In this document: positions 13,347 through 35,443 of the stretch, one piece after another
Layout of the letters: every line of letters begins with the position of its first letter
Position numbering within the stretch: the stretch's first letter is position 1
Assembly (NCBI GenBank): GCA_000165345.1
Contig: CM000435.1
Coordinates: 320,001-384,000, forward strand
DNA length: 64,000 nt
Reading direction: 5' to 3'
Notes under the pieces: generated by a model
Databases searched by the model: none
Told to the model about the DNA's origin: nothing
What the model saw: the letters and a program-made list of their open reading frames with translations, nothing else
Position numbers and translations under genes: made by a program

Positions 13347-13910
13347 ATGAGATTCTATTTATTTTTTTTCGCTCTTTTAGTCTTCTTCGTTGCTACCAAT
13401 GCAGTAAGAATTAGAGGTGGTGAACAAAACAAACTTGAATCCGAAACACCTGAAGAAACTACTACTACCACCACAACCACAGCTCAGCCAGACTCTACTT
13501 CTGACGAAGATACCACTACCACTACTACTACTACTACCACTACTACTACTACTACTACTACCACCACTACTACTACTGAAGCTCCAGAACCTGTCGAAAC
13601 CAAAGAGGGTGAAGAGACTGACGAAAACACTGACGAAACTACTACCACTACTACTACTGCATCTCCAAAGCCTAAATCTCCATCATATAAAGACAGACTC
13701 CTCTCATTCTTCGGCAGTAATGGCGGCAGTATGTTCGGTCTCGGAAAGAGCAGCACTACTACTACTACTACTACTGCCCCTGTTTCCTCTGAGGATAATA
13801 AGCCAGAAGATTCTGAGGACGAAAAAGAGTCAGAATCTGAGAGTGATTCCTCAAACGAAGGTTCTTCAAATTCGGAGGATTCTGAGGAGAAGACCAGGAA
13901 AACTGAATAA
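13347..13910 (+). CDS. Small secreted mucin-like Thr-rich glycoprotein with acidic Ser-rich C-terminal tail
   Basis: The track ORF begins at TTG 13320; the first ATG is at 13347. The product starts MRFYLFFFALLVFFVATNAVRIRGG, a signal peptide. It has uninterrupted Thr runs (T8, T23, T7, T7) typical of O-glycosylated mucin domains. The tail is SEDNKPEDSEDEKESESESDSSNEGSSNSEDSEE. Confidence 0.8.
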   Translation: MRFYLFFFALLVFFVATNAVRIRGGEQNKLESETPEETTTTTTTTAQPDSTSDEDTTTTTTTTTTTTTTTTTTTTTTEAPEPVETKEGEETDENTDETTTTTTTASPKPKSPSYKDRLLSFFGSNGGSMFGLGKSSTTTTTTTAPVSSEDNKPEDSEDEKESESESDSSNEGSSNSEDSEEKTRKTE

Positions 13911-14717
13911 AATCATTAGCAAGCTATTCCACAGATTTGGGATAGATCCCATGGTATTTTATCTTGATTTCTCTCAAATCTGGCTGGTGAAATTTTTGTA
14001 TTTATAGTCTGTTTTTCTGTGAGGTTACAGCCCCTGCTAATTTTTAATTTCATTTATTTATCCGGTTTTTAACAAGTGTCGTAACATCTCCCCCTGAAGG
14101 TTAAGTATTTGTTCTTTTATAATGGTTTTTAGTTGCTGTTGTAGACTGAATTTTTGTTTTGTGGTCATCCGTCTTTAATCATCTGAATGTTTGTGTATAG
14201 TGTGCTGTTGCGTTTATAGGCCAATTTTTTCTTCAAATTAACCTTGAATCTATGATTCATCCTGTCTTTATTCTCAAAATCTCTCTTTTATTCATTTTGT
14301 TTTACTGCCTTTCTATTCTACCTGTTTTTCCTAACTATCATTTCTCCGATACTATTTCATTCATTTAACACCGGTACCATATGTGTACATTTCCCGCCTA
14401 AACCCTCAACCTGTAAATTACATGTAAATAATGCATTTGCACTAAAATAGTAAAGAATATAATTGCTTATTGCTATTAAAGAGAGTGATCGAATTTGGGG
14501 ATAAAATTAGTTTTAATTATAGAAGCATTGATATTGTCTAAATTTAAATACAAAATTATATTAAAGTAAAAGAATGGCATGGCTCGTATGAAAAAAGTGA
14601 GGGATTCCAAAGGAATTAAAGATATGGTTAAAAAAAAGATATAGAATAAAAGAGGGATAAAAGAGATCCATTTCTCTTATTTTAAGAAGTTTTGTGATTT
14701 TAAATAAAGTTTTTGAT

Positions 14718-16457
14718 ATGCTGAGATTTTTCTTGAATTTTGTAATTACATTCTTGTCATTAAGCTTTATTATTAATCAAGCTTATTGCATTAGAGTTGA
14801 ACCAAGAGTGACTAGTCTTTTAAATACTCCAATAAATGAAAACATCAGTGAGAGTCAATCTTGTGTGTTACAAACATTGAAAGAGTTAGTATCATCTAAT
14901 GGAAGAATTCCACCCAAAATTACTAAAAAAAGAATTCAACAAGCTGTACTTACTTGCAGGAAGAAGTTAGCTGCATGTGAATATCCAACCATAGCAGAAG
15001 AAACAATATTTATAACTTTAGGCCAATATGGACATCTATCTCAAATAGATACAGTTAAAGCTTTAAGTTTTATTAATGAAATTCAAAAAGGAATAACAAG
15101 TACTGTTGGATCTTATACACGTATGTATAAGTTAAGTCAAAACAATAATTTCTGTAAGCTATATGATGACTTTATCTTATCGGCTTATCCAAAAGAGTAT
15201 TATGTTTCATTTCTTCCAGAAGGTGGAGAAAGATGTCAGGAATTACTTAATAGATTAAAACAAAATGCATTCTATTCGTATTGGGGACAAGGAGGAATTG
15301 TAGCAGACCAAGCTCAACCAATTGTTGATGATAAGGTTTCAAATGACCCAATTAAAACCAAGGATATGGTTATAAATAATATTTTTGAAAATCCTCCAAA
15401 CAAAGAAACTCAAATAGAGGAATTTTCTAAGCCTGAAAGTGAAACCAATAATAAAACTGATTATAATAATGAAAATGAATATGAAAATGTTATTCATACC
15501 AAACAAGAAATCGACCATTTTGAACAAGAAATTGTGGAAGATTCCGGATGTTGTTCTTGTTGTTCTTGTTCATCTAAAAGGACAAAAACCAAGAAAGGAG
15601 AGAATAGTCAACCTCCAAAATTGGTTGACAGTTCTATGACTGAGGAAGAGTTAGAGTTGATTCGACTTGAACAAGAACTTGAGAAGGAGAATTCTGGTTG
15701 TTGTTCTTGTTCTAGTTCCAATAAAAAAAAGAAAGAAAAGAAACAAGTTAATGGGAATGAAATGTCAAATGATATTCTCCAAGATGGAATTATTAATAAT
15801 GAATTGAAAATGCACGAAGATAATAAAAATGAAGAAGACAATTCTTGTTGTGCCTCTTGTAGCTCAAAGAAGGAGAAAAAAAGCAAAACAAAAAATAAAG
15901 AAAAGGAAGTACAGAATGGTGAGACACAAAGAATGGATGAACAAACTCCCAAAACACTCGTTGAGACTTCTATGACTGAGGAAGAGTTAGAATTGATTCG
16001 ACTTGAACAAGAACTTGAGAAGGAGAATTCTGGTTGCTGTTCTTGTTCTAGTTCCAATAAAAAAAAGAGTAAAAATGAGAAAAAAGATAAAAAACAGAAA
16101 AAGGGTAAAGATGAACAGGACAAAAAGGAAGAAAAGTTTGATCAACTACTAGAAGAGCAACAGGAGGGTGAGGAACCAATTGAGGGAAACAAAAAAAGTA
16201 AAAAAGATAAAAAAGCCAAAAAAGATAAAAAGGATAAAAAAAGCAAAAAGAGTAAGAAAGATGAAAATGGAGTCCTAGTCAATTCTTTGCCTGAAGATAA
16301 AATGGAAGGTAAGAAATCAAGTTGTTGTTCAAGCTCTTGTAGTAGTAGCAGTGATAAAGCATCTGATGAAGAGTTAAAGGAGTTAGCTGAGTTGGAGAAG
16401 AGACTTCAAGAGGAAGAAGAAATGCTCCTCCAAAAAAAAAACGGGTTAAAAACATGA
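14718..16457 (+). CDS. Secreted repeat protein with Cys-cluster motifs (GCCSCCSC/CCSCSSS), a duplicated ~35-aa unit and a Lys-rich tail
   Basis: The track start 14694 is GTG; the first ATG is at 14718 (MLRFFLNFVITFLSLSFIINQAYC, a signal peptide). The unit SMTEEELELIRLEQELEKENSGCCSCSSSNKKK occurs twice. CC-S-CC clusters occur five times. The C-terminus has K-rich runs (KKDKKAKKDKKDKKSKKSKK). Confidence 0.7.
   Translation: MLRFFLNFVITFLSLSFIINQAYCIRVEPRVTSLLNTPINENISESQSCVLQTLKELVSSNGRIPPKITKKRIQQAVLTCRKKLAACEYPTIAEETIFITLGQYGHLSQIDTVKALSFINEIQKGITSTVGSYTRMYKLSQNNNFCKLYDDFILSAYPKEYYVSFLPEGGERCQELLNRLKQNAFYSYWGQGGIVADQAQPIVDDKVSNDPIKTKDMVINNIFENPPNKETQIEEFSKPESETNNKTDYNNENEYENVIHTKQEIDHFEQEIVEDSGCCSCCSCSSKRTKTKKGENSQPPKLVDSSMTEEELELIRLEQELEKENSGCCSCSSSNKKKKEKKQVNGNEMSNDILQDGIINNELKMHEDNKNEEDNSCCASCSSKKEKKSKTKNKEKEVQNGETQRMDEQTPKTLVETSMTEEELELIRLEQELEKENSGCCSCSSSNKKKSKNEKKDKKQKKGKDEQDKKEEKFDQLLEEQQEGEEPIEGNKKSKKDKKAKKDKKDKKSKKSKKDENGVLVNSLPEDKMEGKKSSCCSSSCSSSSDKASDEELKELAELEKRLQEEEEMLLQKKNGLKT
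15627..15735 (+). repeat. Copy 1 of an intragenic ~105-bp direct repeat (copy 2 at ~15958-16065)
   Basis: Near-identical nucleotide stretches 'tctatgactgaggaagagttaga(g/a)ttgattcgacttgaacaagaacttgagaaggagaattctggttg(t/c)tgttcttgttctagttccaataaaaaaaag' are seen twice inside the 14718..16457 CDS. Confidence 0.7.
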
Positions 16458-16938: not shown

Positions 16939-19900
16939 CTAAAACTTTGTAAGATTCTTTTCAGAACTTATTAAATCTGAAATATTGGCTATAATTGGCC
17001 ATTTTACATCAAATGCAATAGTTTTGTTTCTATTATATAAAATAGTTGAGTTTGTATTAGGGTTTTCTGACCCTGTATAACTTTCATTATAATCTTTTTT
17101 ATAAAGATGTCCTAAACCTCCAAAAGGTGGATCTTGAGATGGAGGAGGAATTTGGAGGTGATCATTTGTGTAAGATATTAGCTCTTGAGCAAGATTGACT
17201 GAAGTTAAGTTCTTAAATATATTTCTTTCCTTGATAAATAAGTCTAATAACTCTGATGAAATCATTTCTGAAATTGAAATATATTCACCAACAGTGCAAT
17301 TATTGTTGAACTCAATATTAGAATTATTATTAGAATCAATATTAATACATTTTGAAAATTCAGAATTCAAGAATATCTTATTTTTCAATTGGATTATAAA
17401 GTTTAAACTTTGAATAAGGGTAGGAAGAGCTTCATTTGAAATGTTTGACTTATTAATCTCATTAAGTTTTTGAGAAATAAAAGAACAAACATGTTTAACA
17501 AACCAATTAGAACGTCTAACTTCAATTGAAGAATTGTATTTAATCTTAGAAAGAGTATCCACAGCATTATTTAAGGTAAATAATGGATCCAATGATGGTA
17601 TAACCAAATCTTTAATTAGACTTTGTATGTCAGATTTATTCTTTAATTTTTCACTAGAACAGAAATCTGATAATACTTGACTAATTTTCATAAACTTTGC
17701 TCCACTTGTATTATATAAAGTGAATTTATTCAATTCACCAAGTATCTTAAGAATTTCATTATTTCCATAAGGTTGTATAATAATCTTTTCTAATGAGAAA
17801 TTACATATTACTGGTTTTGAATCATTCTTCATTTGAATATTAGCACTATAAGTATTTTTTGGAGTTCTTATAATAGAAATATCATAATCTCTTTTAAATC
17901 TAAATCTTTGAAGGAATTCTAAAGCTCTATATGAAATAAGTATTTGATAAGAATGTGATCTTAAGATACTTTCAATTATTGATAATACAAGAGTAGGATA
18001 TGAAATCCAAACCATAGAAAATACCTCATTTTGAAAGTTGGTTACTTTTGAAACCAAGTTTGAGACACGATGATTTGATGGATTAATCATAAAAAAGACA
18101 TTTTCAGATAAAAGTCCAGTTTGTACAATACTTGAGATTTGTTTTGAAAGATCACTTCTTTTTTCACTTAATGGTAAAAAGTATAAGTTCTTATCAGTAA
18201 CAAAAAGTTCTTCTTTTTCTAAAGTTGAAATTACTCTGGCATGAACCTTTCTAGTATTCAATTTTGAATGGAAAATAAACATCTTAGGAAGAACTGGTAC
18301 AGTTTTCAAACTTATATCATCTTTTAGATCAATTTCTGGATTTAAAATTATATTATCCATATTTCTAATCTTTGATTCTAATTTCCAAAATTCTAAAGCA
18401 TCTTTTTTATGTTTTTCAATCATTGAAACTGCTTCATTATTAAATTTATATGTATATTTTGAAGTATCATTAATTCCAAAGTACCAAAGTACATCATTAA
18501 AAGCAAAAGTATTGTTACTTTGATTAACAAATGTCATATTCATATTTAAAAATAATCTTCCATCAACAATGATCTTGAAAACTGTTTCGTTAGTTAAACT
18601 TTCATCTTGAGTTTGTTTTGAACATAACCATCCCATCGAATTCTGAGTTTCTAAATTTGAAAGATTTGTCTCATTAGAATAAAGTACACAAGGATCTAAG
18701 AATTGAATAAAATCAGAACTGGAATTTTTTAATTGTGTTGAGTTATTATTCTGAATAGTACGAACAATATAGGAAGAAATTGGGCCATCTCTAATAATTT
18801 TTGAGCTTGAGACATTATCACAATCAATTTCTGAACTAAATTTTAAACAAAAGCTGATAATTCTTTGTAAAGCTGCTAAACCCATTAAGTCTATCAAGAT
18901 TTTATCAAATTCTTTTGAGAAAGTATCATTTTGTAATATCATTTCTGATTTAGAATGATTCTTTCCAATCAAATTCTTGTTATTTTCTTCATTTTCAGTA
19001 ACTACTAATTGATTTACTTCTACCCAATCTAAAACATTAGATGGATTTTTTTCTTTAGGAACATCAATTGATCCAAATATTAGCTTATTTTTATCATATT
19101 TTAAGATCTTATCTTTATTTCCATTTCTAGACATATTTGATTTAGAATTGATTACTGATAAATGATTTGAACAAGGAAGTGAATTATGATCCGAAATTTT
19201 TTTAGAATTTGAGTTTACAGTAATACCAATTTCATTATTTGTATTATCAAAATTTTTATTAATATTTGTAAATTTTCGATCAAATGTTTGATTATTAAAT
19301 AGAGCTGACCATTCTCCCCAATATGTTTCATTAATTTTTGTAACAACTGGTAAAAATTCTTGTATTGTTGAAGAAACATTATTAATTGATATATTTAAAG
19401 CTTCATTTTCTTCAATATGACATTTAGTTAAATTTGAAACTCTAAAAAGTTCTCTTAGTTCAGCTTCAATAACACTATCCTCGGATTTTAGTAGAGACGG
19501 ATCAGAATCTGCATGCGATAAATGAAGATAATGACAAACTTTTTTTGAAAATAAAATATTTGATAACCAAGAACAAGGAAGTTGAGATTTTGGAGGTAAT
19601 TTTCTTCCATATTTTAAATGATAATATGAAGTACATGGTTTTAAAACTTCATCATTAGTAATAAGATCAACATATCTATCCCAATTATCAGAATGTATTT
19701 TTAGTTTTTTTAAAATTGAATCTTTGAGTTTGAAAGAATAATCACTAAATTCTGAGATTCTATCAGGATTACTGGAAGTAATCCAATCAGAAACAATGTT
19801 ATTTCCAAAAATAAGATTCTTTGTTTCTTTTAAGAAGAAATCTTGTAAAGTATTTAAAGTTTGAGATAGAGTGTTAGAGATAAGAATAATATTACTAAGT

Positions 19901-21390
19901 AATCTTGCAGAAAATCCTTCAGCATCTGTTAAATATACCGGACATGGATGAGTTCCAACAAGTTTATCAATTGGAACAGGAAAATCTGATTCCTTAAGTT
20001 CAACAGCATCTTCCAAATCAATGATTTTAAGATCTTTGTAGAAATCTATATCAAGTATATCTTTATATGTGAGATTATAAACATTATTTTCAGTTTTGAA
20101 TTGTTTTGAAATATTTACCAAAATATTTCCTTGATGAAAATCACAATGAATTCTAAAAGATCTAAATCTTTTCCACTTTCCTCTTGAAAAATCTTCTAAT
20201 TCTTCTGGATAGAATGATGTTCCTCCTCTATGAAATAGATCCAAAAGATATAATAATCTTCTATAAAGATTTACTGAGAAAATTATTGTTTTATCAGTAT
20301 AATTATTAATCCAAATATTTATAGAATTCTCCAAAAGTCTTGCTTTAGATTCTACATTAATCTTCTCATCTGACCTTAATGAAGGGAACTTGGAGTCATA
20401 GATTCGAATACTTTCTTCTAAGATTGCATTTACTCTATTTTTTAAATAATTTAAGAGATTTGGATAATCAATAAGTTCTGAAATTATTGAAGAAATTGCA
20501 GGACCATCAATAAACTCCATTAATAGAACATTTCTTGAAATCATTTTTCGATTTGGTTGTAAGAATACGCTATATATGGATGGATGAAGCTTAGATTTAG
20601 AAGCACCATATGTACTTGAGGCCATTCTAGAGTAAATGATCAACTCATGATTAAAATGGTAAAGAAAGTCGTTGGTTCTTCCATCAACTTTTGCTACAAT
20701 TTTCAAAGGAAACTTCTTGGCTTTGTTTGAATGAAGGCATCTCACTCTTAGAGATGATTTCTTTCCGAGTTCATAGACACACCCAGTAAATAGTTCAAAT
20801 CTCTCTTTCTTTTCCTTTTCCTCCTTTTCCTTTCCCTCATCTTTTCCCTCTTCTTTTCCCTCCTTCCCTTCCTCTTCTTTACTTTTCTTCCCCTCATCAC
20901 TCTCCTTCCCCTCATCCCTCCCCTCCCCCTCCTCCTCATCCACCTCCTCCACAGGACTCTTTATCATTGCAAAAATTGTCGAAGCTTCCTTTCCTTGAGA
21001 AGATACCAAAAGCTCTCCAGTCGATGAAACTTTTGGACAATCAATTATGCCCGAAAATTCATTACAAAAATCTTTAAGTCTTAATATACTACATTTCTTA
21101 TAAACCTGACTCAAATGTTTATACCTCTTGTAAAAAACCATTGGAGCATACCAAGTATTTTCTTGTCCTTCTGGAATAAAACATAAATTAATTCGCCTCA
21201 ACTTATCCATTGTTACCACTAAACCATCATCTTGAAAACTATTATTCTTTTCCTCTAGTAATACCTCATTCTCGCTCCCATGAAGCCCAAATAACCTTAT
21301 ACTCCCCTCTGCATAAATAGATCTCGTGATCGGGCACAATACCAAGCAAAATGAGTACACCAAATGAAGTATTTTCTTTCTAATCCTCAT
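16939..21390 (-). CDS. Large (1483 aa) signal-peptide protein with a choline-kinase/aminoglycoside-phosphotransferase-like kinase fold and an acidic EGKE low-complexity insert
   Basis: ATG at 21390; the N-terminus MRIRKKILHLVYSFCLVLCPITRSIYAEG looks like a signal peptide. A kinase-like core is present: KIVAKVDGR (beta3 Lys), LLMEFIDGPAI (hinge), IHCDFHQGNILVN (Brenner HxDxxxxN catalytic loop) and KIIDLEDA (ChoK/APH-type 'IDxE' metal-binding motif in place of DFG). The low-complexity segment is EEGKEGKEEGKDEGKEKEEKEKKE. Confidence 0.55.
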   Translation of the reverse strand: MRIRKKILHLVYSFCLVLCPITRSIYAEGSIRLFGLHGSENEVLLEEKNNSFQDDGLVVTMDKLRRINLCFIPEGQENTWYAPMVFYKRYKHLSQVYKKCSILRLKDFCNEFSGIIDCPKVSSTGELLVSSQGKEASTIFAMIKSPVEEVDEEEGEGRDEGKESDEGKKSKEEEGKEGKEEGKDEGKEKEEKEKKERFELFTGCVYELGKKSSLRVRCLHSNKAKKFPLKIVAKVDGRTNDFLYHFNHELIIYSRMASSTYGASKSKLHPSIYSVFLQPNRKMISRNVLLMEFIDGPAISSIISELIDYPNLLNYLKNRVNAILEESIRIYDSKFPSLRSDEKINVESKARLLENSINIWINNYTDKTIIFSVNLYRRLLYLLDLFHRGGTSFYPEELEDFSRGKWKRFRSFRIHCDFHQGNILVNISKQFKTENNVYNLTYKDILDIDFYKDLKIIDLEDAVELKESDFPVPIDKLVGTHPCPVYLTDAEGFSARLLSNIILISNTLSQTLNTLQDFFLKETKNLIFGNNIVSDWITSSNPDRISEFSDYSFKLKDSILKKLKIHSDNWDRYVDLITNDEVLKPCTSYYHLKYGRKLPPKSQLPCSWLSNILFSKKVCHYLHLSHADSDPSLLKSEDSVIEAELRELFRVSNLTKCHIEENEALNISINNVSSTIQEFLPVVTKINETYWGEWSALFNNQTFDRKFTNINKNFDNTNNEIGITVNSNSKKISDHNSLPCSNHLSVINSKSNMSRNGNKDKILKYDKNKLIFGSIDVPKEKNPSNVLDWVEVNQLVVTENEENNKNLIGKNHSKSEMILQNDTFSKEFDKILIDLMGLAALQRIISFCLKFSSEIDCDNVSSSKIIRDGPISSYIVRTIQNNNSTQLKNSSSDFIQFLDPCVLYSNETNLSNLETQNSMGWLCSKQTQDESLTNETVFKIIVDGRLFLNMNMTFVNQSNNTFAFNDVLWYFGINDTSKYTYKFNNEAVSMIEKHKKDALEFWKLESKIRNMDNIILNPEIDLKDDISLKTVPVLPKMFIFHSKLNTRKVHARVISTLEKEELFVTDKNLYFLPLSEKRSDLSKQISSIVQTGLLSENVFFMINPSNHRVSNLVSKVTNFQNEVFSMVWISYPTLVLSIIESILRSHSYQILISYRALEFLQRFRFKRDYDISIIRTPKNTYSANIQMKNDSKPVICNFSLEKIIIQPYGNNEILKILGELNKFTLYNTSGAKFMKISQVLSDFCSSEKLKNKSDIQSLIKDLVIPSLDPLFTLNNAVDTLSKIKYNSSIEVRRSNWFVKHVCSFISQKLNEINKSNISNEALPTLIQSLNFIIQLKNKIFLNSEFSKCINIDSNNNSNIEFNNNCTVGEYISISEMISSELLDLFIKERNIFKNLTSVNLAQELISYTNDHLQIPPPSQDPPFGGLGHLYKKDYNESYTGSENPNTNSTILYNRNKTIAFDVKWPIIANISDLISSEKNLTKF

Positions 21391-21480: not shown

Positions 21481-21513
21481 TTTCCCGCGCATCCTTGTTC
21501 AATTTTCCCGCCC
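21481..21513. promoter_or_regulatory. Two tandem E2F-type sites (TTTCCCGCGC ... TTTTCCCGCCC) ~90-125 bp upstream of the 21390 start
   Basis: Direct reading gives 'tttcccgcgcatccttgttcaattttcccgcccg'. This matches the E2F/DP consensus TTTSSCGC known as an over-represented Cryptosporidium upstream motif. Confidence 0.5.
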
Positions 21514-24232: not shown

Positions 24233-24540
24233 AGGAGGTGGGAGGAGTGGATTGGCAGGACTGGGAGAAGAGGATGAGAGAACGAGAGGAAGAGAGGAGA
24301 GGACTGGGAGAAGAGGAGTGGGAAAATAGAGGACGAAAGAAAAGGACGAGAGAATGAGAGGAGAGGACTGAGAGAAGAGGAGTGGGAAAATAGAGGACGA
24401 AAGAAGAGGACGAGAGAATGAGAGGAGAGGACTGGGAGAAGAGGACGAGAGAACGAGAGGAAGAGAGGAGAGGACGAGAGAATGAGAGGAGTACAAAAAC
24501 AGGAAACGAAAAGGAAAGGAAATGAATAGAGGAGTGATAA
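24233..24540. repeat. GA-rich (polypurine on + strand) tandem minisatellite, ~4-5 copies of a ~60-65 bp unit
   Basis: Reiterated 'gagaggagaggactgggagaagaggagtgggaaaatagaggacgaaagaa(g/a)aggacgagagaatgagag' units lie immediately 3' of the ppGalNAc-T stop. The minus-strand ORFs 24122..24496 and 24225..24554 (SSLPLVLSSS..., low complexity) are artefacts of this repeat. Confidence 0.85.
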
Positions 24541-26326: not shown

Positions 26327-26338
26327 CTTTTGGCGCCT
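26327..26338. promoter_or_regulatory. E2F-like TTTTGGCGCC motif in the 190-bp spacer upstream of the CK2-like kinase start
   Basis: 'gaggacttttggcgcctacatt' lies between 26184 (the start of the minus-strand gene) and 26374. Confidence 0.4.
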
Positions 26339-28836: not shown

Positions 28837-29542
28837 TACAGAATACTATTACAAAAAAAAAATAACCCATTTCCAAACTCCCTTAAGGTTATTAATATTA
28901 ATTTTCACTTTTATTTCAAATTAATCAAAAATTCCGCTTTTTAGTGGTACATGCATGCACACAGAATGCATGCATGCAGCTCAGACTAAATCCCGCCACC
29001 AGCCCTCATCCTCTCCACTTCTACTCCTCACCTTAAAATGCAGCCAAATAACAAAAACAATTTTTAATACAAAAACATAAAGAAATATTTCATTCATTAG
29101 GAAAAAAACCATTGAAGAAAAAGTGACAATAATAAATAAGTTTTAAAGAGTAATTCTTTGTTTCTATTTATTTATTAGTTGAATGTCTGTTTTAATATAA
29201 TGCGGAAAATGTAGCATAGGATGAGAAATTAAAGAAGAAAATTAAAATGATACCCCTTGTATGTATTTGTGTATACATAGTACCAACTTTTTTGTTCTTC
29301 CACTAGATTATGATAATAATCCTTAATCTCTTTATCCCATTGCTTCCACCAGCAGGAAAACTTAAAACAGACTTTGAGCTAATCCCATTAGATATACTTT
29401 TATGTTATATTATGTTTGGCAACCACCAAGATCTAAAACAAGAGCATCTCTCCACTCCCCTCTCTCACAAACTCAACTAACTAACTCAGGATAACTGAAA
29501 CTTTATGAATAATTACTTTTTATTCTTCATTCCAAACCCTAT

Positions 29543-32500
29543 TTATTGGGAAAAATCTTGAGTTGGAGACTCTAAAGTACGTCCTGTAGTTGCAAAAACC
29601 GATGTATCCTGCTGAGCAGAAGCTTCATTTGAAGCTGGTGGAGAAAGGAAATCCCCATTAACAACAAAATCAGGACATCCAAAAGCAAGACAACAAGCTT
29701 CTGTTGATTCTACTGGACTGAATTGTCTGAATTTACCAAAAACTGCTTGCATTGCACTAGTACATTGTGATCTTGTTACTTTAGCTTGTCCTGTTGGCTT
29801 AATTCTTCTCACAACTCCCATTATTAATTGCCAAGTAATTGGATGAGTTCTCTTCTTTGGTAAAAGATCAAGTCTATGACCATATGAATCAGCTAATTTG
29901 AATGCATAGTATCTCTCCAAATTAGTCTTAAGAACTCCTCCATTGAAGTTTTGATCTGAAGTAATATCCAATATTGAACAAATCTGAGATAACATCTGGT
30001 TACTTTGAGCTGATAAGTATTTTGGGAAAAGTATTGTCTTTACTGCATTTCTACAAGATGGAGTAGCAATTCTCATTCTTCCTTGTTTTACTTTGTTTGC
30101 ATACTTGAGAATATTTACATAGTTAACTACATCACAAAGATGAGACAGATTGATGAATTGGGAGAATCCTGTTTTTGACGCAAGTTTTTGATGTAATTGT
30201 TTAGCAGTAATAAAGTCAATTCTTTGAGCTGATAAACAACTTTCACTTTGTAATGGATCTATTAAAGCACAAATTGATTTTGCTGATTCAATTGAATATC
30301 CAAGATCATCAACTAATTGACCAGTACAGCTCTCCAATACAGTAAATTGATTCAATTTGTAAATAACCTTAGCAAATGCTTCGACTGTTGTTCTCTTCTC
30401 ATCCTTTGTTGGCTTATGAGACACAATACGATTCAACATCTCTAATTGTACTTTTGTCAAAGCTGAATAATACTTTCCTCTAACATCATCAATTCCTGGA
30501 GAATTTGATGCTTCAATAGATTCCAATGTCTTAAGAACTCCTGGTAATGATTCTACTTGACTACCTTCTGTTAAGCTTGGCATAACATCATATCTTCTAG
30601 TCTTTGTCTTGGTTGCTTTAATCTTATCATCCATAAATTGTTGATAAGTCTTTTCTGCAGATGGGAGTTGATATTCGCCTTTACCATCCATAAAGTCTTT
30701 AATGCTATTAAGAGCTTTCTTGATCTCATTAAGCTCTTTACCTGAAGTTCTTCTCTCAAAGAATGAAGAACAGGCATGATGAGACAGTTGGAAAAGTGAA
30801 TTACTAGTATCTAACCATCTTCCAAAGAATTCTGAAATCATTACAAATTCACATTTCTCTCTGGGTGGATTATCTCCCATCAATTCAAAAGCTTTACAGA
30901 TTTCATCAAATCTATATTCAAGAATACCATACCTCTTTGAAAGATCATAAATCTTCCTAGTGAAAGGATGAATAATTGGTCTTCTAGTCATAGGTAATTT
31001 ATCACATGATTCAGATCCCCAGAAGTCCATTCTAATACATATCTCCTCTTGTTGTGTTGCAGTTAAACCATATCTTTGAGCAAAAGTCAAATTAACATTT
31101 TTCAATACAAATCGATTCATAGCATGAGAACATCTTCTTTGAACTGATCCTTTTGATGGACTAATCTTTGGAACATTCATTGCTGCAACTAATAGACAAA
31201 CATCTTCAAGCTGCATCAATGTATTTCCTCTTAATTCCTTTAAGAAGTAAGATCTAACATCTCTAGCAATACCAATCAATGGAGAAACTAAGAATCTTCT
31301 ACAGATTTCAACAGATTGTTTCTCCATTGCAGAACACATCTTTCTAACCTCAGCTCCAGTGAATTGTTCTCTAGGAGCATTTTCATCGTTATTCTCAAAC
31401 TTTCCCAAATATGAGTTAAGGATAGACTCACAAGTAATTTGTGGTTCATTAATGTTAAATTCTCTAACCATATTAACAACTTCAATTAGAGAGTAAACAT
31501 TGAATCCCATAGCCTTATACTCATCATAGATGTTATAAGCCCACATAAGCTGAGTAGGCGAGATAATTCCTTCTTGTAAAGATTGGCTTAAAGCTGGCTC
31601 ACTGCTTAAGAGAACAGCCAACTTTTGACCAATAGGAGAAGTCTTCCACCATCTGGTAGTATATGTTTGAGTAGGATTGAAGAAGCCACCAGTTAAAATA
31701 ACAGCCTTTTCTTCTAATTCCTTTTGTCTCTTGGAATGTTTCTTGTATACCTCTTGACAAGCTTCAACAAATTGAGAGACAATATCCCATCCCCATGGAG
31801 AAACAGTATCTCCCATATTAGCAGCTCTGTTCCATAATAAAGAAATCATTTCATTTCTACAGAACTCAAGAGTTTGACTTTCTTCATCTTTCATTGCAGA
31901 TACAACCTTACAAGCATCACTAACTCTGAAATCAAGTAACCTCGGAAATATAGCTTCACCAAAAGCAACAGACAATTCTTGAGCCTTTTGAATGTGCCTT
32001 GGAGGAACTCTTTTACATTCTGGAGTCATAGTAAAGTCCATCATTTTACATATGGTTTCAGCATCCTCTTGAGTAACTGTTTCAACAGTAAGTGGATCTC
32101 TCAAAGCTAAGATATTTTGTTGACAAACATCATAAACAGTTCGATATTTGACATTAGGAAGCTGGGAAGGTCTAACAAGTTGAACCAATCTACAGATTGA
32201 TTGTTGTTCAAGCTTTCCTCTGAACCTGTTTTCAATATCATCAACAAGAACAAAATCTGGCCATGCCAAGTCAGCACATTCATCATGGCCCCATGGTTCT
32301 ATATTTGAGCACCAGGTCTCAGTATTTTCAGAATGAATTCCCATATCCAAAAGAACCTGTTCACAAGCCTCCTGACTCCATCCAAAAGTAGAGAACTTTT
32401 GGAACATAGTTTCAAAATCCTTAACAGTATACTTGAATGGACTGTTGGAATATTTTGGATCAGATTGGAATCTCCAAGCTGCAATTTCAGCCCATTGTCT

Positions 32501-32797
32501 GGCTCTTTCAAGAACGGCACTTTCTTTAACTCTTTGGTATCTTCTAGCAATTGGAATATAACCAATAGGAAGTCTATATTCTCTTAAACTGTCTACCCAC
32601 TTTTTATGTTCTAATGGACTCATCCATGGACCCGACATATACATATTCGTAACTGCTCCAGTTAAAGCTGCTGAATGTTGTGATGGTGGATGCAACCCCG
32701 GAACAACCTGGGTTGGCATATAGAATTGATCAAAGTTCTCTGCAAGGCATGCTCCCACAAATGCCAATGCGGTGCTAATAGTGAATATCAACTTCAT
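29543..32797 (-). CDS. Large (1084 aa) secreted Cys-rich protein of unknown function
   Basis: ATG at 32797. MKLIFTISTALAFVGACLAENF is a clear signal peptide. More than 40 Cys are spread through the sequence, and no motif I recognise is present. Confidence 0.7.
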   Translation of the reverse strand: MKLIFTISTALAFVGACLAENFDQFYMPTQVVPGLHPPSQHSAALTGAVTNMYMSGPWMSPLEHKKWVDSLREYRLPIGYIPIARRYQRVKESAVLERARQWAEIAAWRFQSDPKYSNSPFKYTVKDFETMFQKFSTFGWSQEACEQVLLDMGIHSENTETWCSNIEPWGHDECADLAWPDFVLVDDIENRFRGKLEQQSICRLVQLVRPSQLPNVKYRTVYDVCQQNILALRDPLTVETVTQEDAETICKMMDFTMTPECKRVPPRHIQKAQELSVAFGEAIFPRLLDFRVSDACKVVSAMKDEESQTLEFCRNEMISLLWNRAANMGDTVSPWGWDIVSQFVEACQEVYKKHSKRQKELEEKAVILTGGFFNPTQTYTTRWWKTSPIGQKLAVLLSSEPALSQSLQEGIISPTQLMWAYNIYDEYKAMGFNVYSLIEVVNMVREFNINEPQITCESILNSYLGKFENNDENAPREQFTGAEVRKMCSAMEKQSVEICRRFLVSPLIGIARDVRSYFLKELRGNTLMQLEDVCLLVAAMNVPKISPSKGSVQRRCSHAMNRFVLKNVNLTFAQRYGLTATQQEEICIRMDFWGSESCDKLPMTRRPIIHPFTRKIYDLSKRYGILEYRFDEICKAFELMGDNPPREKCEFVMISEFFGRWLDTSNSLFQLSHHACSSFFERRTSGKELNEIKKALNSIKDFMDGKGEYQLPSAEKTYQQFMDDKIKATKTKTRRYDVMPSLTEGSQVESLPGVLKTLESIEASNSPGIDDVRGKYYSALTKVQLEMLNRIVSHKPTKDEKRTTVEAFAKVIYKLNQFTVLESCTGQLVDDLGYSIESAKSICALIDPLQSESCLSAQRIDFITAKQLHQKLASKTGFSQFINLSHLCDVVNYVNILKYANKVKQGRMRIATPSCRNAVKTILFPKYLSAQSNQMLSQICSILDITSDQNFNGGVLKTNLERYYAFKLADSYGHRLDLLPKKRTHPITWQLIMGVVRRIKPTGQAKVTRSQCTSAMQAVFGKFRQFSPVESTEACCLAFGCPDFVVNGDFLSPPASNEASAQQDTSVFATTGRTLESPTQDFSQ

Positions 32798-34234
32798 GAT
32801 TGATTCAATAATAATTTAGATTCACAAATTTGCAAAGAGTCTTCAGGTTTCTCAGTTCCGAAGCTTTGAATAATTTTCTATCAATCTTAATAACTTATTT
32901 TTTTAATGCTGCTTCTATTTTATTACTCCACTAATAATTCCTTCTTCCAATCAAATCCACTCACTTAAGTCGATTTAATGAAAGATTCACTGCCCTATAA
33001 ATTTCAAGAAAACTCTAAGTTTACTGTCCAACTGTTCCTTTCCTTTATTTTTGCTTTATGGAATTTCCAAGCAGAGAGGAACACGTCCTGGATCTATAAA
33101 CATGTTAGATCTGCCCGCCACTATGCCGCATGGGCGCCATATATTTAAGATGGGGCACTTAAATCCGAGTTTGCATGCGCATGTAAGTTTGGCGGACTAA
33201 TGGCCATTTCCCGCCCCATAAACATGCAGAGGGTAGTTTGTTTCTTACTTTGTCCTGAATTCCCTCTTTTCCCTCTTTTTGTCATGAATTTCCTTATAGT
33301 AGATCTGTTGAGGGGAGGGTGCTTTGTTTGGATCGCTTGTTCGAGTAGACTTGGATGTCGTCATATTCTTTCTTTTCATTGTTTTGAACTTATTACGTGA
33401 TTCTTTTTCTGTGAGGAAAAGAATTGCTTACAGTTATAAATTCTTTCTATTTATGCTTTAGAAGTGATAGAGAGAGATAAAGAAAGAAAAGAGGATTTCA
33501 GAATTCAATAAAGAATAGGCTAGGCAGAAAATAAAGTTCAGTACAAGGAAATCCAATTAGGCTTTCATATATAGTTGATATTAATTACGGTGTATTATTT
33601 GAATAAAACAAAAAAAAATAACTTTTTCATGCAATTTGATTAAATGACCCTAATTTGTATTAGGATAATAAGAATTCAGCTAAATGAAAAAAAAATCTTA
33701 AAATTTGTTGTGAATATTTTTACATAAATACTACATAAAATTTGGTTAATTCTAACTCCTCCTATTTGAATCGATTTGCTTTAAAGAGAAAAAGAAGCAA
33801 AGTCCTAACCTATTGAATTATTTACTTGGTTAAAAGAAAAGTTTTGTGAAAGTGGGATAGAGAGTGAGTGGAAGAAAAGAAGGAAAGAAAAGAAATAGGG
33901 TCAGTCTGAAAAAGTTGATTATTACCTTTGATCCAGAGTTGAAGGGAATACTTATTAAAAAGAGGAAGAAAAAAAATCTTCAGCTCTTTTGATTATATCA
34001 TATTCTCTGCTTTATAAAGTATTTCACTTAATTTTGTATCCATTGAAAAAGGTTACATATATTAAGAGAAAGAAAGAAAGAGCTGATAGACTTAGGTACT
34101 CTTAAATTAATAAAATAGAGATTTAACATATTAAAGAGAAAGAAGAAAAGCTTTAAAAGAGCAACTAGTTTTTAGTTATTTAAGAAGAAAAAAGTCCAGG
34201 TTAAGATAATTTCAGCTTAATTGAATTCTGAACA

Positions 34235-35443
34235 ATGCAGCCAATTGGAGCATTTGGGATGGTTCCCCAATTAATAAATCCACCGGTGATGATGGTACCT
34301 GGAAGAAGCTCTGGGAAAGGTTCGAGTGGAAATTGTTGTGGTGGAAGTAATTCTAAAAGAAAAGGTTCCTGTGGTTCATGCGGAAGATGTTTTGGGTCAC
34401 TATTTATTATTCTATTTGCTTTTATATGTACCTCTTGTTGCTATGCTTATCCAATTTATAACTCCTTTACTAACCCAGAATACTTTAAGAAACAGGAGAC
34501 ACCAATTTGGACATGGGAAACGGCTTTTAGTAAAGCAAAAGAAATTGGCTACTCTATGTCATTAACCAAATCTCCAGAAGACGGAAATGGAACTTCTGAA
34601 AATACAGCAAGAAGTAGAGAAATGGATAGAGTTCAGTTCCTTAAATTGAATTCTACGGATGATAATAACAGAAATGCTAGTACATTTATTAACTTGGAGA
34701 ATATTTTAGGTCAGAATTCTTCCAAAATATTCTTCCCTCCATACAATAACACTTATATTTCTAGTCTTCTATATTCTAACCCAGAAAGGAAGCTAAGCAT
34801 AAGAGGAGGAGTAGGAGGATTGAACCTCGTAAAAGACTTAGCTATTGGAGTAAAGACTAAACAGATACCCAATAAATACTTCAACAAGGAGTACTGCGAT
34901 AGAGGAAGAGAAGAAAAATCGGAGGGAGTTTGGAATGAATTTTGCAACTATAAACATAATGTAACTAACTTAGAATGTATTGATATGATGAACGGGCCAG
35001 CAATATGTGTTGGAATTAGAAATCGTAAATATGAAGTGTTTTCAGTTTCAAAGCAATGCAAATTCATTGACCCCGAAATCCCTGTTGAAATCTTTCCAAC
35101 AATATCAGACATTTGCTATAGTGGAAAATACTTGAATAGTTCATTAGCTACATTTAATATTACTAAGCCAATATGTCCTTGCATGATTAGTTCAAGTCCA
35201 GTTGATAATTTAGAATTAAATGAAAATACGACAATAGCAACAACATTAACTGGCAATCAAAAAACAAGGGACTTTATTCTACAAGACAAAGCCAACCCAG
35301 AAACTCAGAAAATGCTCAGAGGGCCTGAAGGAATTTCAGACAGCTCTTCCAATTCTGGTTTAATTCATTCTACCGCCAAAACCCTTAATCATGCTATTCC
35401 GGGGAACAATACAAACTCTACACTAAAAATGCTCAATTCTTAG
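34235..35443 (+). CDS. Type II membrane protein: Gly/Cys-rich cytosolic tail, single TM, N-glycosylated ectodomain; unknown function
   Basis: ATG at 34235. The tail MQPIGAFGMVPQ...GNCCGGSNSKRKGSCGSCGRCFGS is followed by LFIILFAFICTSCCYAYPI (TM) and a ~330-aa ectodomain with many NxS/T sequons and paired Cys. Confidence 0.6.
   Translation: MQPIGAFGMVPQLINPPVMMVPGRSSGKGSSGNCCGGSNSKRKGSCGSCGRCFGSLFIILFAFICTSCCYAYPIYNSFTNPEYFKKQETPIWTWETAFSKAKEIGYSMSLTKSPEDGNGTSENTARSREMDRVQFLKLNSTDDNNRNASTFINLENILGQNSSKIFFPPYNNTYISSLLYSNPERKLSIRGGVGGLNLVKDLAIGVKTKQIPNKYFNKEYCDRGREEKSEGVWNEFCNYKHNVTNLECIDMMNGPAICVGIRNRKYEVFSVSKQCKFIDPEIPVEIFPTISDICYSGKYLNSSLATFNITKPICPCMISSSPVDNLELNENTTIATTLTGNQKTRDFILQDKANPETQKMLRGPEGISDSSSNSGLIHSTAKTLNHAIPGNNTNSTLKMLNS

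What the first reader, a model, noticed from the sequence alone, without database searches (positions are those of the whole stretch)
13347..35443. Co-localised 'secretory modification' gene neighbourhood: mucin + ppGalNAc-T + two signal-peptide kinase-fold proteins + STE20 kinase + orphan secreted/membrane proteins
Within ~22 kb I see eight consecutive genes tied to the secretory pathway. They are a Thr-run mucin (13347-13910) and a CC-cluster repeat protein with a signal peptide (14718-16457). Next is a 1483-aa ChoK/APH-fold protein with a signal peptide (16939-21390). Then comes the O-glycosylation initiating enzyme ppGalNAc-T (22218-24232), a CK2alpha-like kinase with a signal peptide (24622-26184) and a STE20-like kinase (26374-28836). 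Last are a 1084-aa Cys-rich secreted protein (29543-32797) and a type II membrane protein (34235-35443). The mucin carries both ppGalNAc-T substrate (Thr runs) and an acidic Ser cluster (SEDSEDEKESESESDSSNEGSSNSEDSEE). That cluster fits the acidophilic S/T-x-x-D/E consensus of CK2-type kinases. A lumenal CK2-like kinase would be functionally analogous to Fam20C 'Golgi casein kinase'. This could be a physically linked substrate-plus-modifying-enzyme module for glycosylated and phosphorylated secreted antigens. I do not know of this being described as a unit.
Basis: partly seen in the sequence, partly recalled or inferred. Interest (0 to 1): 0.75.

Follow-up and report, generated by a model that had tools for sequence, protein, structure and literature searches.

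The report
Known Cryptosporidium chromosome 7 secretory-gene neighbourhood
This is an already annotated stretch of Cryptosporidium parvum chromosome 7 (cgd7_1280 to cgd7_1350) where a proven mucin, a sugar-adding enzyme, two odd kinase-like proteins with secretion signals and other parasite-specific secreted proteins lie side by side. Most are switched on together inside the host cell, but nothing shows that they form a substrate-plus-enzyme unit.

Summary
The eight ORFs are real and sit at the stated coordinates. They are C. parvum genes cgd7_1280 to cgd7_1350.

**Confirmed**
- The mucin is the published Gp20, whose O-GalNAc was verified by mass spectrometry.
- cgd7_1310 is one of five candidate ppGalNAc-T genes and needs a 119-nt intron.
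- cgd7_1320 is a Cryptosporidium-only CK2alpha paralogue. Its signal-peptide-like N-terminus is conserved across the genus.
- cgd7_1330 is a cytosolic STE20-like kinase closest to the GCK-III group.

**Not confirmed**
- The ChoK/APH fold of cgd7_1300. Only a catalytic-loop motif matches, below threshold.

**Against a substrate-plus-enzyme module**
- The mucin slot changes completely between species while the enzymes stay.
- The Ser-acidic tail is not conserved.
- The CK2-like kinase has lost five of the seven basic residues of CK2's substrate-binding cluster.
- It is also the one gene of the eight that is not among the strongly intracellular-induced genes.
- A mucin within three genes of one of five ppGalNAc-Ts has about a 17% chance.
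- Gene order is conserved genome-wide in this genus, so conserved order here is uninformative.

**New here**
- Seven of the eight genes fall in the top ~14% of intracellular-biased transcripts.
- All seven carry the known E2F-like GGCGGG(AA) motif upstream.

**Verdict:** an ordinary, loosely co-regulated neighbourhood. The secretion-signal CK2-like kinase is the only lead worth following.

The parts
13347..13910 (+). cgd7_1280, Gp20. A 187-aa secreted mucin with a signal peptide, four Thr runs (8, 22, 7 and 7 residues) and an acidic Ser-rich tail.
   Evidence: The ORF is. The published glycopeptides EGEETDENTDETTTTTTTASPKPK and SSTTTTTTTAPVSSEDNKPEDSEDEK sit at residues 87 and 135, matching PMC5549699. 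FPKM is 1173-7675 at 24 h and about 3000-3700 at 48 h, against 1-100 in oocysts and sporozoites.
14718..16457 (+). cgd7_1290. A 579-aa protein with a signal peptide, a conserved N-terminal domain and repeated GCCSCSSS-plus-polylysine units.
   Evidence: Public name: 'signal peptide-containing protein'. Expressed only at 48 h (386-697 FPKM, against 0-3 at 24 h). The C. muris orthologue lacks the CC clusters.
16939..21390 (-). cgd7_1300. A 1483-aa genus-specific protein with a signal peptide and an invariant kinase-like catalytic-loop motif (HCDFHQGN ... IIDLED).
   Evidence: Only Cryptosporidium homologues were found. APH and ABC1 match below threshold at the loop. The fold is unresolved. It is not listed in the published kinome.
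22218..22311 (+). cgd7_1310 exon 1. It encodes the cytoplasmic tail and the first hydrophobic segment of the ppGalNAc-T.
   Evidence: The GTAAGT donor is at 22312 and the TAG acceptor ends at 22430. The splice restores the frame.
22431..24232 (+). cgd7_1310 exon 2. It encodes the GT-A catalytic domain (DxH at residue 229, WGGENIEQSIRIW) and a weak ricin-type lectin domain.
   Evidence: Pfam: PF00535 at 1.3e-20, PF02709 at 4.9e-05, and PF00652 at 28.8 bits against a cut-off of 29. The spliced product is 631 aa. It is one of five GalNAc-T candidates. It was detected in an oocyst-wall proteome.
24622..26184 (-). cgd7_1320. A 520-aa divergent CK2alpha paralogue with a signal-peptide-like N-terminus and three lineage-specific inserts.
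   Evidence: Orthologues occur only in Cryptosporidium; the next-best hits are CK2alpha at 28-38% identity. The K/E/HRD/N/DWG residues are invariant, and the basic cluster KKKKIKREIK has become QEWKIIREVS. N-terminal hydrophobicity is 2.3-3.6 in all nine orthologues, against -0.5 to 0.9 in canonical CK2alpha.
26374..28836 (-). cgd7_1330. An 820-aa cytosolic STE20-like kinase, closest to the GCK-III group, with HND in place of HRD.
   Evidence: The best PDB hits are MST3/STK24 and MST4 at 2e-30. It has no N-terminal hydrophobic segment. The published kinome classes it as OPK.
29543..32797 (-). cgd7_1340. A 1084-aa genus-specific, highly conserved protein with a signal peptide.
   Evidence: Identity is 65-98% across the genus, with no Pfam family. 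It is abundant in an oocyst-wall proteome. It is down-regulated together with dense-granule proteins in the CDPK5 study.
34235..35443 (+). cgd7_1350. A 402-aa protein with a Gly/Cys-rich N-terminus, one transmembrane segment at about residues 46-72, and a C-terminal part carrying 11 N-glycosylation sequons.
   Evidence: Expression is enriched at 48 h (262-465 FPKM).
12869..12876 (-). E2F-like 'motif 4' core GGCGGGAA in the divergent 5' region shared by cgd7_1270 and cgd7_1280. A second GGCGGG lies at 13108.
   Evidence: The motif is described in PMC3734150.
14391..14398 (-). GGCGGGAA, 325 bp upstream of cgd7_1290.
21505..21512 (-). GGCGGGAA in the divergent promoter shared by cgd7_1300 and cgd7_1310.
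   Evidence: The site is retained in C. meleagridis and chipmunk genotype I.
28991..28997 (-). GGCGGGA, 156 bp upstream of the cgd7_1330 start codon.
   Evidence: The site is retained in C. meleagridis, chipmunk genotype I and C. bovis.
33208..33215 (-). GGCGGGAA in the divergent promoter shared by cgd7_1340 and cgd7_1350. A second GGCGGG lies at 33114.
26329..26337 (+). TTTGGCGCC, the other E2F-like class ('motif 3'). It is the only such element in the 189-bp spacer upstream of cgd7_1320.
   Evidence: The motif classes are defined in PMC3734150.

Best explanation
The region is a block of eight unrelated, mostly Cryptosporidium-specific genes (cgd7_1280 to cgd7_1350) in conserved gene order. 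Each most likely works on its own.

**What each gene does**
- Gp20 is a secreted mucin that receives O-GalNAc in the Golgi.
- cgd7_1310 is one of five candidate type II ppGalNAc-Ts, which together serve about two dozen mucins.
- cgd7_1320 is a catalytically intact but divergent CK2alpha paralogue. It probably enters the secretory pathway.
- cgd7_1300 is an orphan with a signal peptide and only a kinase-like catalytic-loop motif.
- cgd7_1330 is a cytosolic STE20-like kinase.
- cgd7_1290, 1340 and 1350 are secreted or membrane orphans.

**What links them**
Seven of the eight share a coarse transcriptional programme: silent in oocysts and sporozoites, induced in intracellular stages. All seven have the known E2F-like GGCGGG(AA) element upstream. 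The neighbourhood is therefore loosely co-regulated. The placement of mucin, glycosyltransferase and CK2-like kinase next to each other is best read as coincidence inside a secretory-gene-rich, fully syntenic genome.

**Shown:** gene identities, signal-like N-termini and their conservation, expression bias, motif distribution, and divergence of the mucin slot.

**Inferred:** absence of a functional coupling, and secretory location of the kinase-like proteins.
For: - **Identity of the genes:**
- **Gene order:** the same order and orientation occur in C. muris, C. bovis, C. meleagridis, C. ubiquitum and chipmunk genotype I. Synteny is near-complete among the intestinal species and lower, but still present, with the gastric and avian ones.
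- **The mucin slot diverges while the enzymes persist:**
- **Expression:** seven of eight genes have log2(extracellular/intracellular) between -9.25 and -6.47, about the top 540 of 3793. cgd7_1320 and the flanking cgd7_1270, 1360 and 1370 are absent from the 1804 most biased rows. Under independence, 7 of 8 in the top 14% has P = 8e-6, or 0.03 windows expected genome-wide.
- **Motif:** GGCGGG occurs 9 times in the 64 kb, always between genes. Seven of the nine lie in the five 5' regions of those seven genes, and none lies in about 4.8 kb of other 5' regions (P about 0.007). GGCGGGAA occurs 5 times against 0.27 expected. The motif is the published E2F-like motif 4.
- **Chance:** a mucin within three genes of any of five GalNAc-Ts has a probability of about 0.17.
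Against: - The co-expression and motif statistics are post hoc. They use one coarse ratio from one truncated table.
- Neighbouring genes in a compact genome are not independent.
- E2F-like motifs are the commonest upstream elements in C. parvum, found at 2379 genes with no particular expression pattern.
- Direct adjacency of a signal-bearing CK2-like kinase and a ppGalNAc-T (about 0.003 a priori) is unusual.
- That adjacency is conserved as far as the gastric species, so a functional link cannot be excluded.
- No localisation, phosphoproteomic or knockout data for these genes could be accessed.
Confidence: 0.62

Rival explanations
1. Gp20 is glycosylated by the neighbouring ppGalNAc-T cgd7_1310. 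Its acidic Ser tail is phosphorylated in the ER/Golgi lumen by the neighbouring CK2-like kinase cgd7_1320 (and perhaps by cgd7_1300), in the manner of Fam20C. The genes are kept together because they act on each other.
For: - Gp20 carries dense O-GalNAc.
- Its tail has six S-x-x-D/E sites in the last 50 residues.
- cgd7_1320 has a signal-like N-terminus conserved across the genus and intact catalytic residues. It retains K77, R80 and the basic residues of the p+1 loop (R, K, K).
- The sporozoite phosphoproteome shows enrichment of acidic residues downstream of phosphorylated sites.
- Gene order is conserved.
Against: - The mucin slot and the Ser tail are not conserved while the enzymes are.
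- Five of the seven basic-cluster residues are lost, one of them replaced by Glu.
- cgd7_1320 is not among the strongly intracellular-induced genes, unlike Gp20.
- Peptide 135-160, which includes SSEDNKPEDSEDEK, was observed as peptide plus eight HexNAc only.
- There are four other GalNAc-T candidates.
- Adjacency of a mucin and a GalNAc-T by chance has a probability of about 0.17.
- Genus-wide synteny makes conservation of order uninformative.
Confidence: 0.06
2. Whatever its neighbours do, cgd7_1320 (and possibly cgd7_1300) is a true secretory-pathway or secreted kinase. It would act on many cargo proteins or on host proteins, filling the role that ROPK/WNG kinases play in Toxoplasma or Fam20C plays in animals. 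This is compatible with the best explanation as far as the neighbourhood is concerned.
For: - Hydrophobic N-termini with plausible cleavage sites occur in all nine cgd7_1320 orthologues. They are absent from canonical CK2alpha.
- A separate canonical CK2alpha, cgd6_620, exists for cytosolic duties.
- The catalytic residues are invariant.
- Most cgd7_1300 orthologues also start with a hydrophobic segment, and HCDxHxxN / IIDLED is invariant.
- Theileria annulata CK2alpha also carries an N-terminal hydrophobic extension. From my own recollection, it was proposed in the 1990s to be secreted.
Against: - No signal-peptide predictor, localisation data or activity data were available.
- cgd7_1320 has only three Cys and no conserved disulphide pattern.
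- Its N-glycosylation sequons are only partly conserved.
- It was not found in the oocyst-wall proteome searched.
- The kinase fold of cgd7_1300 is unverified.
Confidence: 0.35
3. The block is part of a larger, non-random secretory-gene domain of about 50 kb (window 1-51.3 kb), organised at the chromatin or promoter level for production of secretory-organelle and surface proteins.
For: - 14 of the 16 genes from the start of the window to 51.3 kb have an N-terminal hydrophobic or transmembrane segment, against 0 of 6 beyond.
- With the published upper-bound frequency of 32%, about 0.03 such windows are expected genome-wide.
Against: - My hydrophobicity calls are more liberal than SignalP or TMHMM.
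- The set is heterogeneous. It includes a Sec14-like protein, two tandem SbmA/BacA-like transporters and a PhoD-like phosphatase.
- Counting the tandem paralogues once raises the expectation to 0.08.
- The flanking genes cgd7_1270, 1360 and 1370 do not share the expression bias or the GGCGGG motif.
Confidence: 0.15

Closest known systems
Gp20 (cgd7_1280), a mucin-type O-GalNAc glycoprotein of C. parvum (Haserick et al. 2017, PMC5549699)
   Same: It is the same protein. Both published glycopeptides are found at the published residue numbers.
   Different: Nothing differs in kind. The Thr-run length differs between isolates, and the exact sequence is not in the protein collection.
Polypeptide GalNAc-transferases (GT27). 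C. parvum has five candidates: cgd5_690, cgd6_1960, cgd7_1310, cgd7_4120 and cgd7_4160.
   Same: It has the GT-A domain, the DxH motif, the Gal/GalNAc-T motif, a C-terminal ricin-type domain and an N-terminal membrane anchor.
   Different: The lectin domain scores just under the Pfam cut-off. There are two N-terminal hydrophobic segments. Its acceptor preference is unknown.
Protein kinase CK2 alpha subunit (CMGC/CK2), with canonical C. parvum copy cgd6_620
   Same: CK2alpha gives the best sequence matches. It has DWG in place of DFG, the CK2-type Lys in the p+1 loop, and intact catalytic residues.
   Different: It has a signal-like N-terminus and three inserts of about 12-35 residues. Five of the seven alphaC basic residues are lost. 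The Gly after the p+1 Lys is replaced by Ala. There are no orthologues outside Cryptosporidium.
Fam20C, the 'Golgi casein kinase' of animals
   Same: The only shared feature is the proposed logic: a kinase with a signal peptide acting on acidic Ser clusters of secreted proteins.
   Different: It belongs to an unrelated family, with no Fam20 domain (Pfam finds only Pkinase). Fam20C prefers S-x-E. Lumenal location and activity are untested here.
Theileria CK2alpha with an N-terminal signal-like extension
   Same: It is an apicomplexan CK2alpha with a hydrophobic N-terminal extension (P0025).
   Different: The Theileria protein keeps the canonical basic cluster (VKKKKIKREIK) and is the organism's ordinary CK2alpha. 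The Cryptosporidium protein is a second, divergent paralogue. That the Theileria protein is secreted is my recollection of older proposals and was not verified here.
GCK-III STE20 kinases (MST3/STK24, MST4, STK25)
   Same: These are the best structural-sequence relatives of cgd7_1330.
   Different: It has HND in place of HRD and long N- and C-terminal extensions. The published kinome classes it as 'other protein kinase'.
E2F-like upstream 'motif 4' (TTTGGCGGGAAV) of C. parvum (Oberstaller et al. 2013, PMC3734150)
   Same: The shared promoter element found here is this motif.
   Different: It is a very common element with no specific expression pattern. Here it separates seven block genes from their neighbours, which carry the GGCGCC class instead.

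Membership tests
Protein kinase CK2 alpha (cgd7_1320) | Best sequence similarity is to CK2alpha rather than to other CMGC kinases. | tested here: met
   Beyond two unnamed Hymenolepis proteins, the named non-Cryptosporidium hits are almost all CK2alpha. The top 60 PDB hits are all CK2alpha or CK2alpha' at E about 1e-46.
Protein kinase CK2 alpha (cgd7_1320) | Catalytic Lys, alphaC Glu, HRD Asp, Asn, and DWG in place of DFG. | tested here: met
   K134, E147, H255-R256-D257, N262 and D276-W277-G278 are invariant in the alignment with canonical CK2alpha.
Protein kinase CK2 alpha (cgd7_1320) | Basic cluster K74-K83 (KKKKIKREIK) on helix alphaC, which recognises acidic residues downstream of the target. 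| tested here: not met
   The segment reads QEWKIIREVS. Only K77 and R80 are kept, and K75 has become Glu. This holds in the intestinal species; the pattern is similar in C. bovis and C. muris.
Protein kinase CK2 alpha (cgd7_1320) | p+1 loop R191, R195, K198 followed by Gly. | tested here: inconclusive
   RVASKYYKAPE keeps R, K (for R195) and K, but Gly is replaced by Ala. The published kinome notes the same.
Protein kinase CK2 alpha (cgd7_1320) | Cytosolic or nuclear protein without a signal sequence, forming a holoenzyme with CK2beta. | tested here: not met
   A hydrophobic N-terminus is present in all nine orthologues (score 2.3-3.6, against -0.5 to 0.9 in canonical CK2alpha). Binding to CK2beta cannot be tested here.
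Fam20C-type secretory-pathway kinase | Fam20 kinase domain. | tested here: not met
   Pfam finds only Pkinase and PK_Tyr_Ser-Thr for cgd7_1320, and nothing for cgd7_1300.
Fam20C-type secretory-pathway kinase | Lumenal localisation and phosphorylation of secreted substrates. | not testable with these tools
   Only the N-terminal hydrophobic segment could be shown.
APH / choline-kinase type protein-kinase-like fold (cgd7_1300) | A significant match to the APH, Choline_kinase or another protein-kinase-like profile. | tested here: not met
   No family at E <= 0.01. The best matches are APH at E = 0.085 in 7 of 9 orthologues and ABC1 at E = 0.017 in 5 of 9, over 17-18 residues only. The profile found nothing in the PDB at E <= 10. 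A profile search of 1.84 billion proteins found only Cryptosporidium orthologues plus one immunoglobulin artefact.
APH / choline-kinase type protein-kinase-like fold (cgd7_1300) | Catalytic-loop motif HxDxxxxN followed by a D-x-E/DFG-type metal-binding motif. | tested here: met
   HCDFHQGN and IIDLED are invariant in all orthologues. hhalign pairs IHCDFHQGNILV with FHRDIKPQNIVI, but over only 16 columns at 27% probability.
APH / choline-kinase type protein-kinase-like fold (cgd7_1300) | Bilobal kinase fold. | tested here: inconclusive
Polypeptide GalNAc-transferase, GT27 (cgd7_1310) | GT-A catalytic domain with the DxH motif and the Gal/GalNAc-T motif. | tested here: met
   PF00535 at 1.3e-20 and PF02709 at 4.9e-05. 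FMDGHC is at residue 229, and WGGENIEQSIRIW is present.
Polypeptide GalNAc-transferase, GT27 (cgd7_1310) | C-terminal ricin-type lectin domain. | tested here: inconclusive
   PF00652 at E = 1.5e-06, scoring 28.8 bits against a cut-off of 29.
Polypeptide GalNAc-transferase, GT27 (cgd7_1310) | It glycosylates the neighbouring mucin Gp20. | not testable with these tools
   Five candidate enzymes exist and no acceptor data are available.
Mucin-type O-glycoprotein (cgd7_1280) | Signal peptide, Ser/Thr-rich runs, and demonstrated O-GalNAc. | tested here: met
   The identity with the mass-spectrometry-verified Gp20 peptides is.
Functional gene cluster (substrate plus modifying enzymes) | All members are co-expressed. 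| tested here: inconclusive
   Seven of eight share a strong intracellular bias, but cgd7_1320 does not. cgd7_1290 is 48-h only. cgd7_1300, 1310 and 1330 lie in three different published clusters.
Functional gene cluster (substrate plus modifying enzymes) | Linkage is conserved beyond background synteny, with the substrate conserved alongside the enzymes. | tested here: not met
   Order is conserved in five other species, but the genus is syntenic throughout. The mucin slot changes identity.

The most novel reading that the evidence does not exclude
cgd7_1320, a genus-specific CK2alpha paralogue with a conserved signal peptide, is an active kinase inside the secretory pathway or secreted into the host interface. 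The orphan cgd7_1300 may be as well. Cryptosporidium lacks ROPK/WNG-type kinases and Fam20, so these proteins would supply the phosphorylation of secreted proteins at acidic motifs, with Gp20-like acidic Ser tails among the substrates.
Probability: 0.2. Interest if true: 0.65.

Novelty: already known. Interest (0 to 1): 0.28.

Why it matters
If the block were a real substrate-plus-enzyme unit, it would be a rare case of functional gene clustering in an apicomplexan. It would also point directly to the enzymes that decorate vaccine-candidate mucins. The evidence does not support that.

What remains useful is narrower.
- Cryptosporidium has a second CK2-like kinase with a secretion signal. It is conserved across the genus and absent elsewhere. 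Which kinase phosphorylates secreted proteins in this parasite is, as far as I could find, not known, and no kinase for that role turned up in the literature searched. That makes cgd7_1320 a cheap and well-defined tagging target.
- The clean split between GGCGGG-type and GGCGCC-type promoters matches an expression difference within one small region. That gives a compact test bed for the two E2F-like motif classes.

Tried and rejected
- **Localisation and phosphorylation data.** The spatial-proteomics paper is not held. The supplements of the CDPK5 and sporozoite phosphoproteome papers are not held. The Gp20 paper's supplements do not use cgd identifiers.
- **Virulence QTL on chromosome 7.** It lies at cgd7_4490-4530 and is unrelated.
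- **Non-coding RNA in the GC-rich spacer between cgd7_1310 and cgd7_1320.** There is no tRNA and no Rfam match. The spacer is a purine-rich minisatellite.
- **Polycistronic transcription as a link between 1340, 1330 and 1320.** The paper does not mention these genes and finds no functional grouping in polycistrons.
- **The reported loss of cgd7_1280 in chipmunk genotype I.** This was rejected. The current assembly has a diverged orthologue in the same slot.

Full report
**What is there**

The window is Cryptosporidium parvum chromosome 7. The 520-aa kinase ORF is encoded identically on CP141124.1 at about 375-397 kb, with the same neighbours. The eight ORFs of the finding exist at the stated coordinates. 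They correspond to cgd7_1280 through cgd7_1350:
- The ppGalNAc-T is listed in the literature as cgd7_1310.
- The CK2-like kinase is cgd7_1320 and the next kinase is cgd7_1330.
- The mucin is cgd7_1280.
- The 1084-aa protein is labelled 7g1340 in a C. hominis record.

All eight are annotated in public records. The names given include 'signal peptide-containing protein', 'casein kinase II, alpha subunit' and 'protein kinase'.

**Gene by gene**

*cgd7_1280 (Gp20).* The mucin at 13347-13910 is Gp20. The two published O-GalNAc glycopeptides sit at residues 87 and 135, exactly as numbered in the paper, carrying 6-8 and 8 HexNAc.

*cgd7_1310 (ppGalNAc-T).* The gene starts at 22218 only if a 119-nt GT..AG intron (22312-22430) is removed. 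The product is then 631 aa. It has two N-terminal hydrophobic segments, a GT2 domain, a DxH motif at residue 229, the WGGENxE motif and a borderline ricin domain. It is one of five GalNAc-T candidates in the genome.

*cgd7_1320 (CK2-like kinase).* Orthologues occur in every Cryptosporidium species sampled and nowhere else. The next-best matches are CK2alpha at 28-38% identity, and the top PDB hits are all CK2alpha.
- The catalytic residues and the CK2-typical DWG are invariant.
- The basic cluster KKKKIKREIK on helix alphaC reads QEWKIIREVS, so only K77 and R80 remain.
- The p+1 loop keeps its basic residues.
- There are three lineage-specific inserts.
- All nine orthologues start with a strongly hydrophobic stretch (score 2.3-3.6) followed by small residues. 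Canonical CK2alpha from other organisms scores -0.5 to 0.9.

From established work on CK2 substrate recognition (the Sarno/Pinna mutagenesis studies, recalled rather than re-read), the 74-83 cluster recognises acidic residues at n+3 to n+5, and the 191-198 residues recognise n+1. Acidophily may therefore be weakened rather than abolished.

*cgd7_1330.* This kinase is closest to the GCK-III STE20 kinases MST3 and MST4 (E = 2e-30). It has HND in place of HRD and no signal sequence. The 'possible transmembrane region' in its old annotation is the glycine loop.

*cgd7_1300.* The 1483-aa protein is restricted to the genus. It has invariant HCDFHQGN and IIDLED motifs. Every test of a ChoK/APH or kinase fold stayed below threshold or was uninformative.

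*cgd7_1290, 1340 and 1350.* These are genus-specific secreted or membrane proteins without recognisable domains.

**Is the clustering more than chance?**

Published counts give at most 32% of C. parvum proteins a signal peptide or transmembrane domain. At that rate, 7 of 8 is expected about eight times in the genome. A mucin within three genes of any of the five GalNAc-Ts has a probability of about 0.17.

The run of hydrophobic N-termini extends beyond the finding. It covers 14 of the 16 genes from the window start to 51.3 kb, against 0 of 6 afterwards. That is nominally rare, with 0.03 windows expected. However, my calls are liberal, and the extra genes are heterogeneous: a Sec14-like protein, two tandem SbmA/BacA-like transporters and a PhoD-like phosphatase.

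**Synteny**

The same genes lie in the same order and orientation in C. muris, C. bovis, C. meleagridis, C. ubiquitum and chipmunk genotype I. The intestinal species are almost completely syntenic and the gastric and avian ones largely so, so this carries little weight.

What sits in the mucin slot is more telling:
- C. meleagridis has a Thr-run mucin, but with only two S-x-x-D/E sites in its tail.
- C. ubiquitum has two short Thr runs and one such site.
- Chipmunk genotype I has NETNET repeats with 19 N-glycosylation sequons and a different Ser-rich tail.
- C. muris has a signal-peptide protein made of HEGNYQGT repeats.

The enzymes are conserved and the proposed substrate is not.

**Expression**

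In the Matos et al. table of 3793 genes sorted by oocyst/sporozoite versus intracellular FPKM, seven of the eight genes lie between log2 -9.25 and -6.47. That is roughly the top 540. cgd7_1320 is absent from the 1804 stored rows, which reach down to -2.89. So are the flanking cgd7_1270, 1360 and 1370 and the canonical CK2 gene cgd6_620.

Under independence, 7 of 8 in the top 14% has P = 8e-6, or 0.03 windows expected. The block is therefore coarsely co-regulated, but the kinase at the centre of the hypothesis is the exception.

Timing also differs. cgd7_1290 is on only at 48 h, while Gp20 and cgd7_1340 are already high at 24 h. In a finer published clustering, cgd7_1300, 1310 and 1330 fall into three different clusters.

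**A shared promoter element**

The hexamer GGCGGG occurs nine times in the 64 kb, always between genes. Seven of those sites lie in the five 5' regions that serve exactly the seven co-induced genes, mostly as TTTCCCGCC. None lies in the about 4.8 kb of other 5' regions (P about 0.007). GGCGGGAA occurs 5 times against 0.27 expected.

The 189-bp spacer upstream of cgd7_1320 carries TTTGGCGCC instead, as do the promoters of cgd7_1360 and the ATAD3 gene. Both are published E2F-like motifs, numbered 4 and 3. They are the most common upstream elements in C. parvum and are not tied to one expression pattern. The GGCGGG sites are retained at the same promoters in C. meleagridis and chipmunk genotype I, and partly in more distant species. 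This supports loose co-regulation, not a dedicated unit.

**Direct evidence on phosphorylation**

None could be obtained. The one relevant datum is that Gp20 peptide 135-160, which contains SSEDNKPEDSEDEK, was observed with the mass of peptide plus eight HexNAc. The authors did not search for phosphate.

**Conclusion**

The interpretation as a linked substrate-plus-enzyme module is not supported.

The most likely account (about 0.6) is a syntenic, loosely co-regulated neighbourhood of independent secretory genes.

Independently of the neighbourhood, cgd7_1320 may really be a secretory-pathway or secreted kinase. I rate that at about 0.35 as a rival explanation. The stronger version in the novel case also requires that it is active and supplies acidic-motif phosphorylation of secreted proteins, and I rate that at 0.2. 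No paper that could be searched discusses its signal sequence; the kinome paper does not mention signal peptides at all.

All components are already annotated or published, so novelty is low and interest modest.

Noticed in passing
window 12871, 13108, 14393, 21507, 28992, 33114, 33210 (also 55574, 55626); 26329 for the other class: GGCGGG (E2F-like motif 4) marks the 5' regions of exactly the seven strongly intracellular-induced genes of the block. The promoters of cgd7_1320, cgd7_1360 and the ATAD3 gene carry the GGCGCC class (motif 3) instead. The two motif classes therefore separate with an expression difference inside one small region.
   Followed up: partly
window 24257-24517 (spacer between the 3' ends of cgd7_1310 and cgd7_1320): A purine-rich minisatellite with a 64-bp unit in 3.4 copies (89% matches) gives the spacer 44% GC, against 21-31% in the other spacers. 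The spacer is 390 bp in one C. parvum assembly (L001) and about 219 bp in another (L002), so its length varies between strains. There is no tRNA or Rfam match.
   Followed up: partly
window 1-51400: 14 of 16 consecutive genes have an N-terminal hydrophobic or transmembrane segment, against 0 of the next 6. The 14 include the >4100-aa cgd7_1270, a Sec14/CRAL-TRIO protein, two SbmA/BacA-like proteins, a 730-aa orphan and a PhoD-like phosphatase. The secretory-gene run is longer than the finding's coordinates.
   Followed up: partly
L004:20246-21343 (C. muris), L008:17261-17923 (chipmunk genotype I), L007:17219-17707 (C. ubiquitum): The gene in the Gp20 slot keeps its signal peptide and position but changes its repeat type between species. 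It has Thr runs in C. parvum and C. meleagridis, NET repeats (19 N-glycosylation sequons) in chipmunk genotype I, and HEGNYQGT repeats in C. muris. The published statement that cgd7_1280 is lost in chipmunk genotype I does not hold for the current assembly.
   Followed up: yes
window 14718-16457 (cgd7_1290): Five GCCSCSSS-type Cys clusters, each followed by a poly-Lys stretch, lie behind a signal peptide. A 30-residue unit (MTEEELELIRLEQELEKENSGCCSCSSSNKKK) is duplicated. Expression is confined to 48 h, when sexual stages appear. The C. muris orthologue lacks the clusters.
   Followed up: partly
window 29543-32797 (cgd7_1340): This orphan is far more conserved than its neighbours: 65% identity to C. 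serpentis and 79-86% to other species. It is abundant in an oocyst-wall proteome. In the CDPK5 study it falls together with DG8 (cgd8_5300), cgd4_3530 and cgd6_3050, all of which are dense-granule proteins. It may be a dense-granule or wall-forming-body protein.
   Followed up: no
P0025 (Theileria annulata CK2alpha), alignment A3: The ordinary CK2alpha of Theileria also has a long N-terminal extension that starts with a hydrophobic stretch (score 2.13), while it keeps the canonical basic cluster.
   Followed up: no
window 41355-42371 (-) and 42520-43521 (+): Two divergently transcribed paralogous SbmA/BacA-like membrane protein genes lie 148 bp apart.
   Followed up: no
window 22218-24232; L001 and L002: Public gene models of cgd7_1310 disagree: 631 aa, 642 aa, a 669-aa older model and a 599-aa single-exon call. 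The 119-nt intron with GTAAGT..TAG gives 631 aa.
   Followed up: yes
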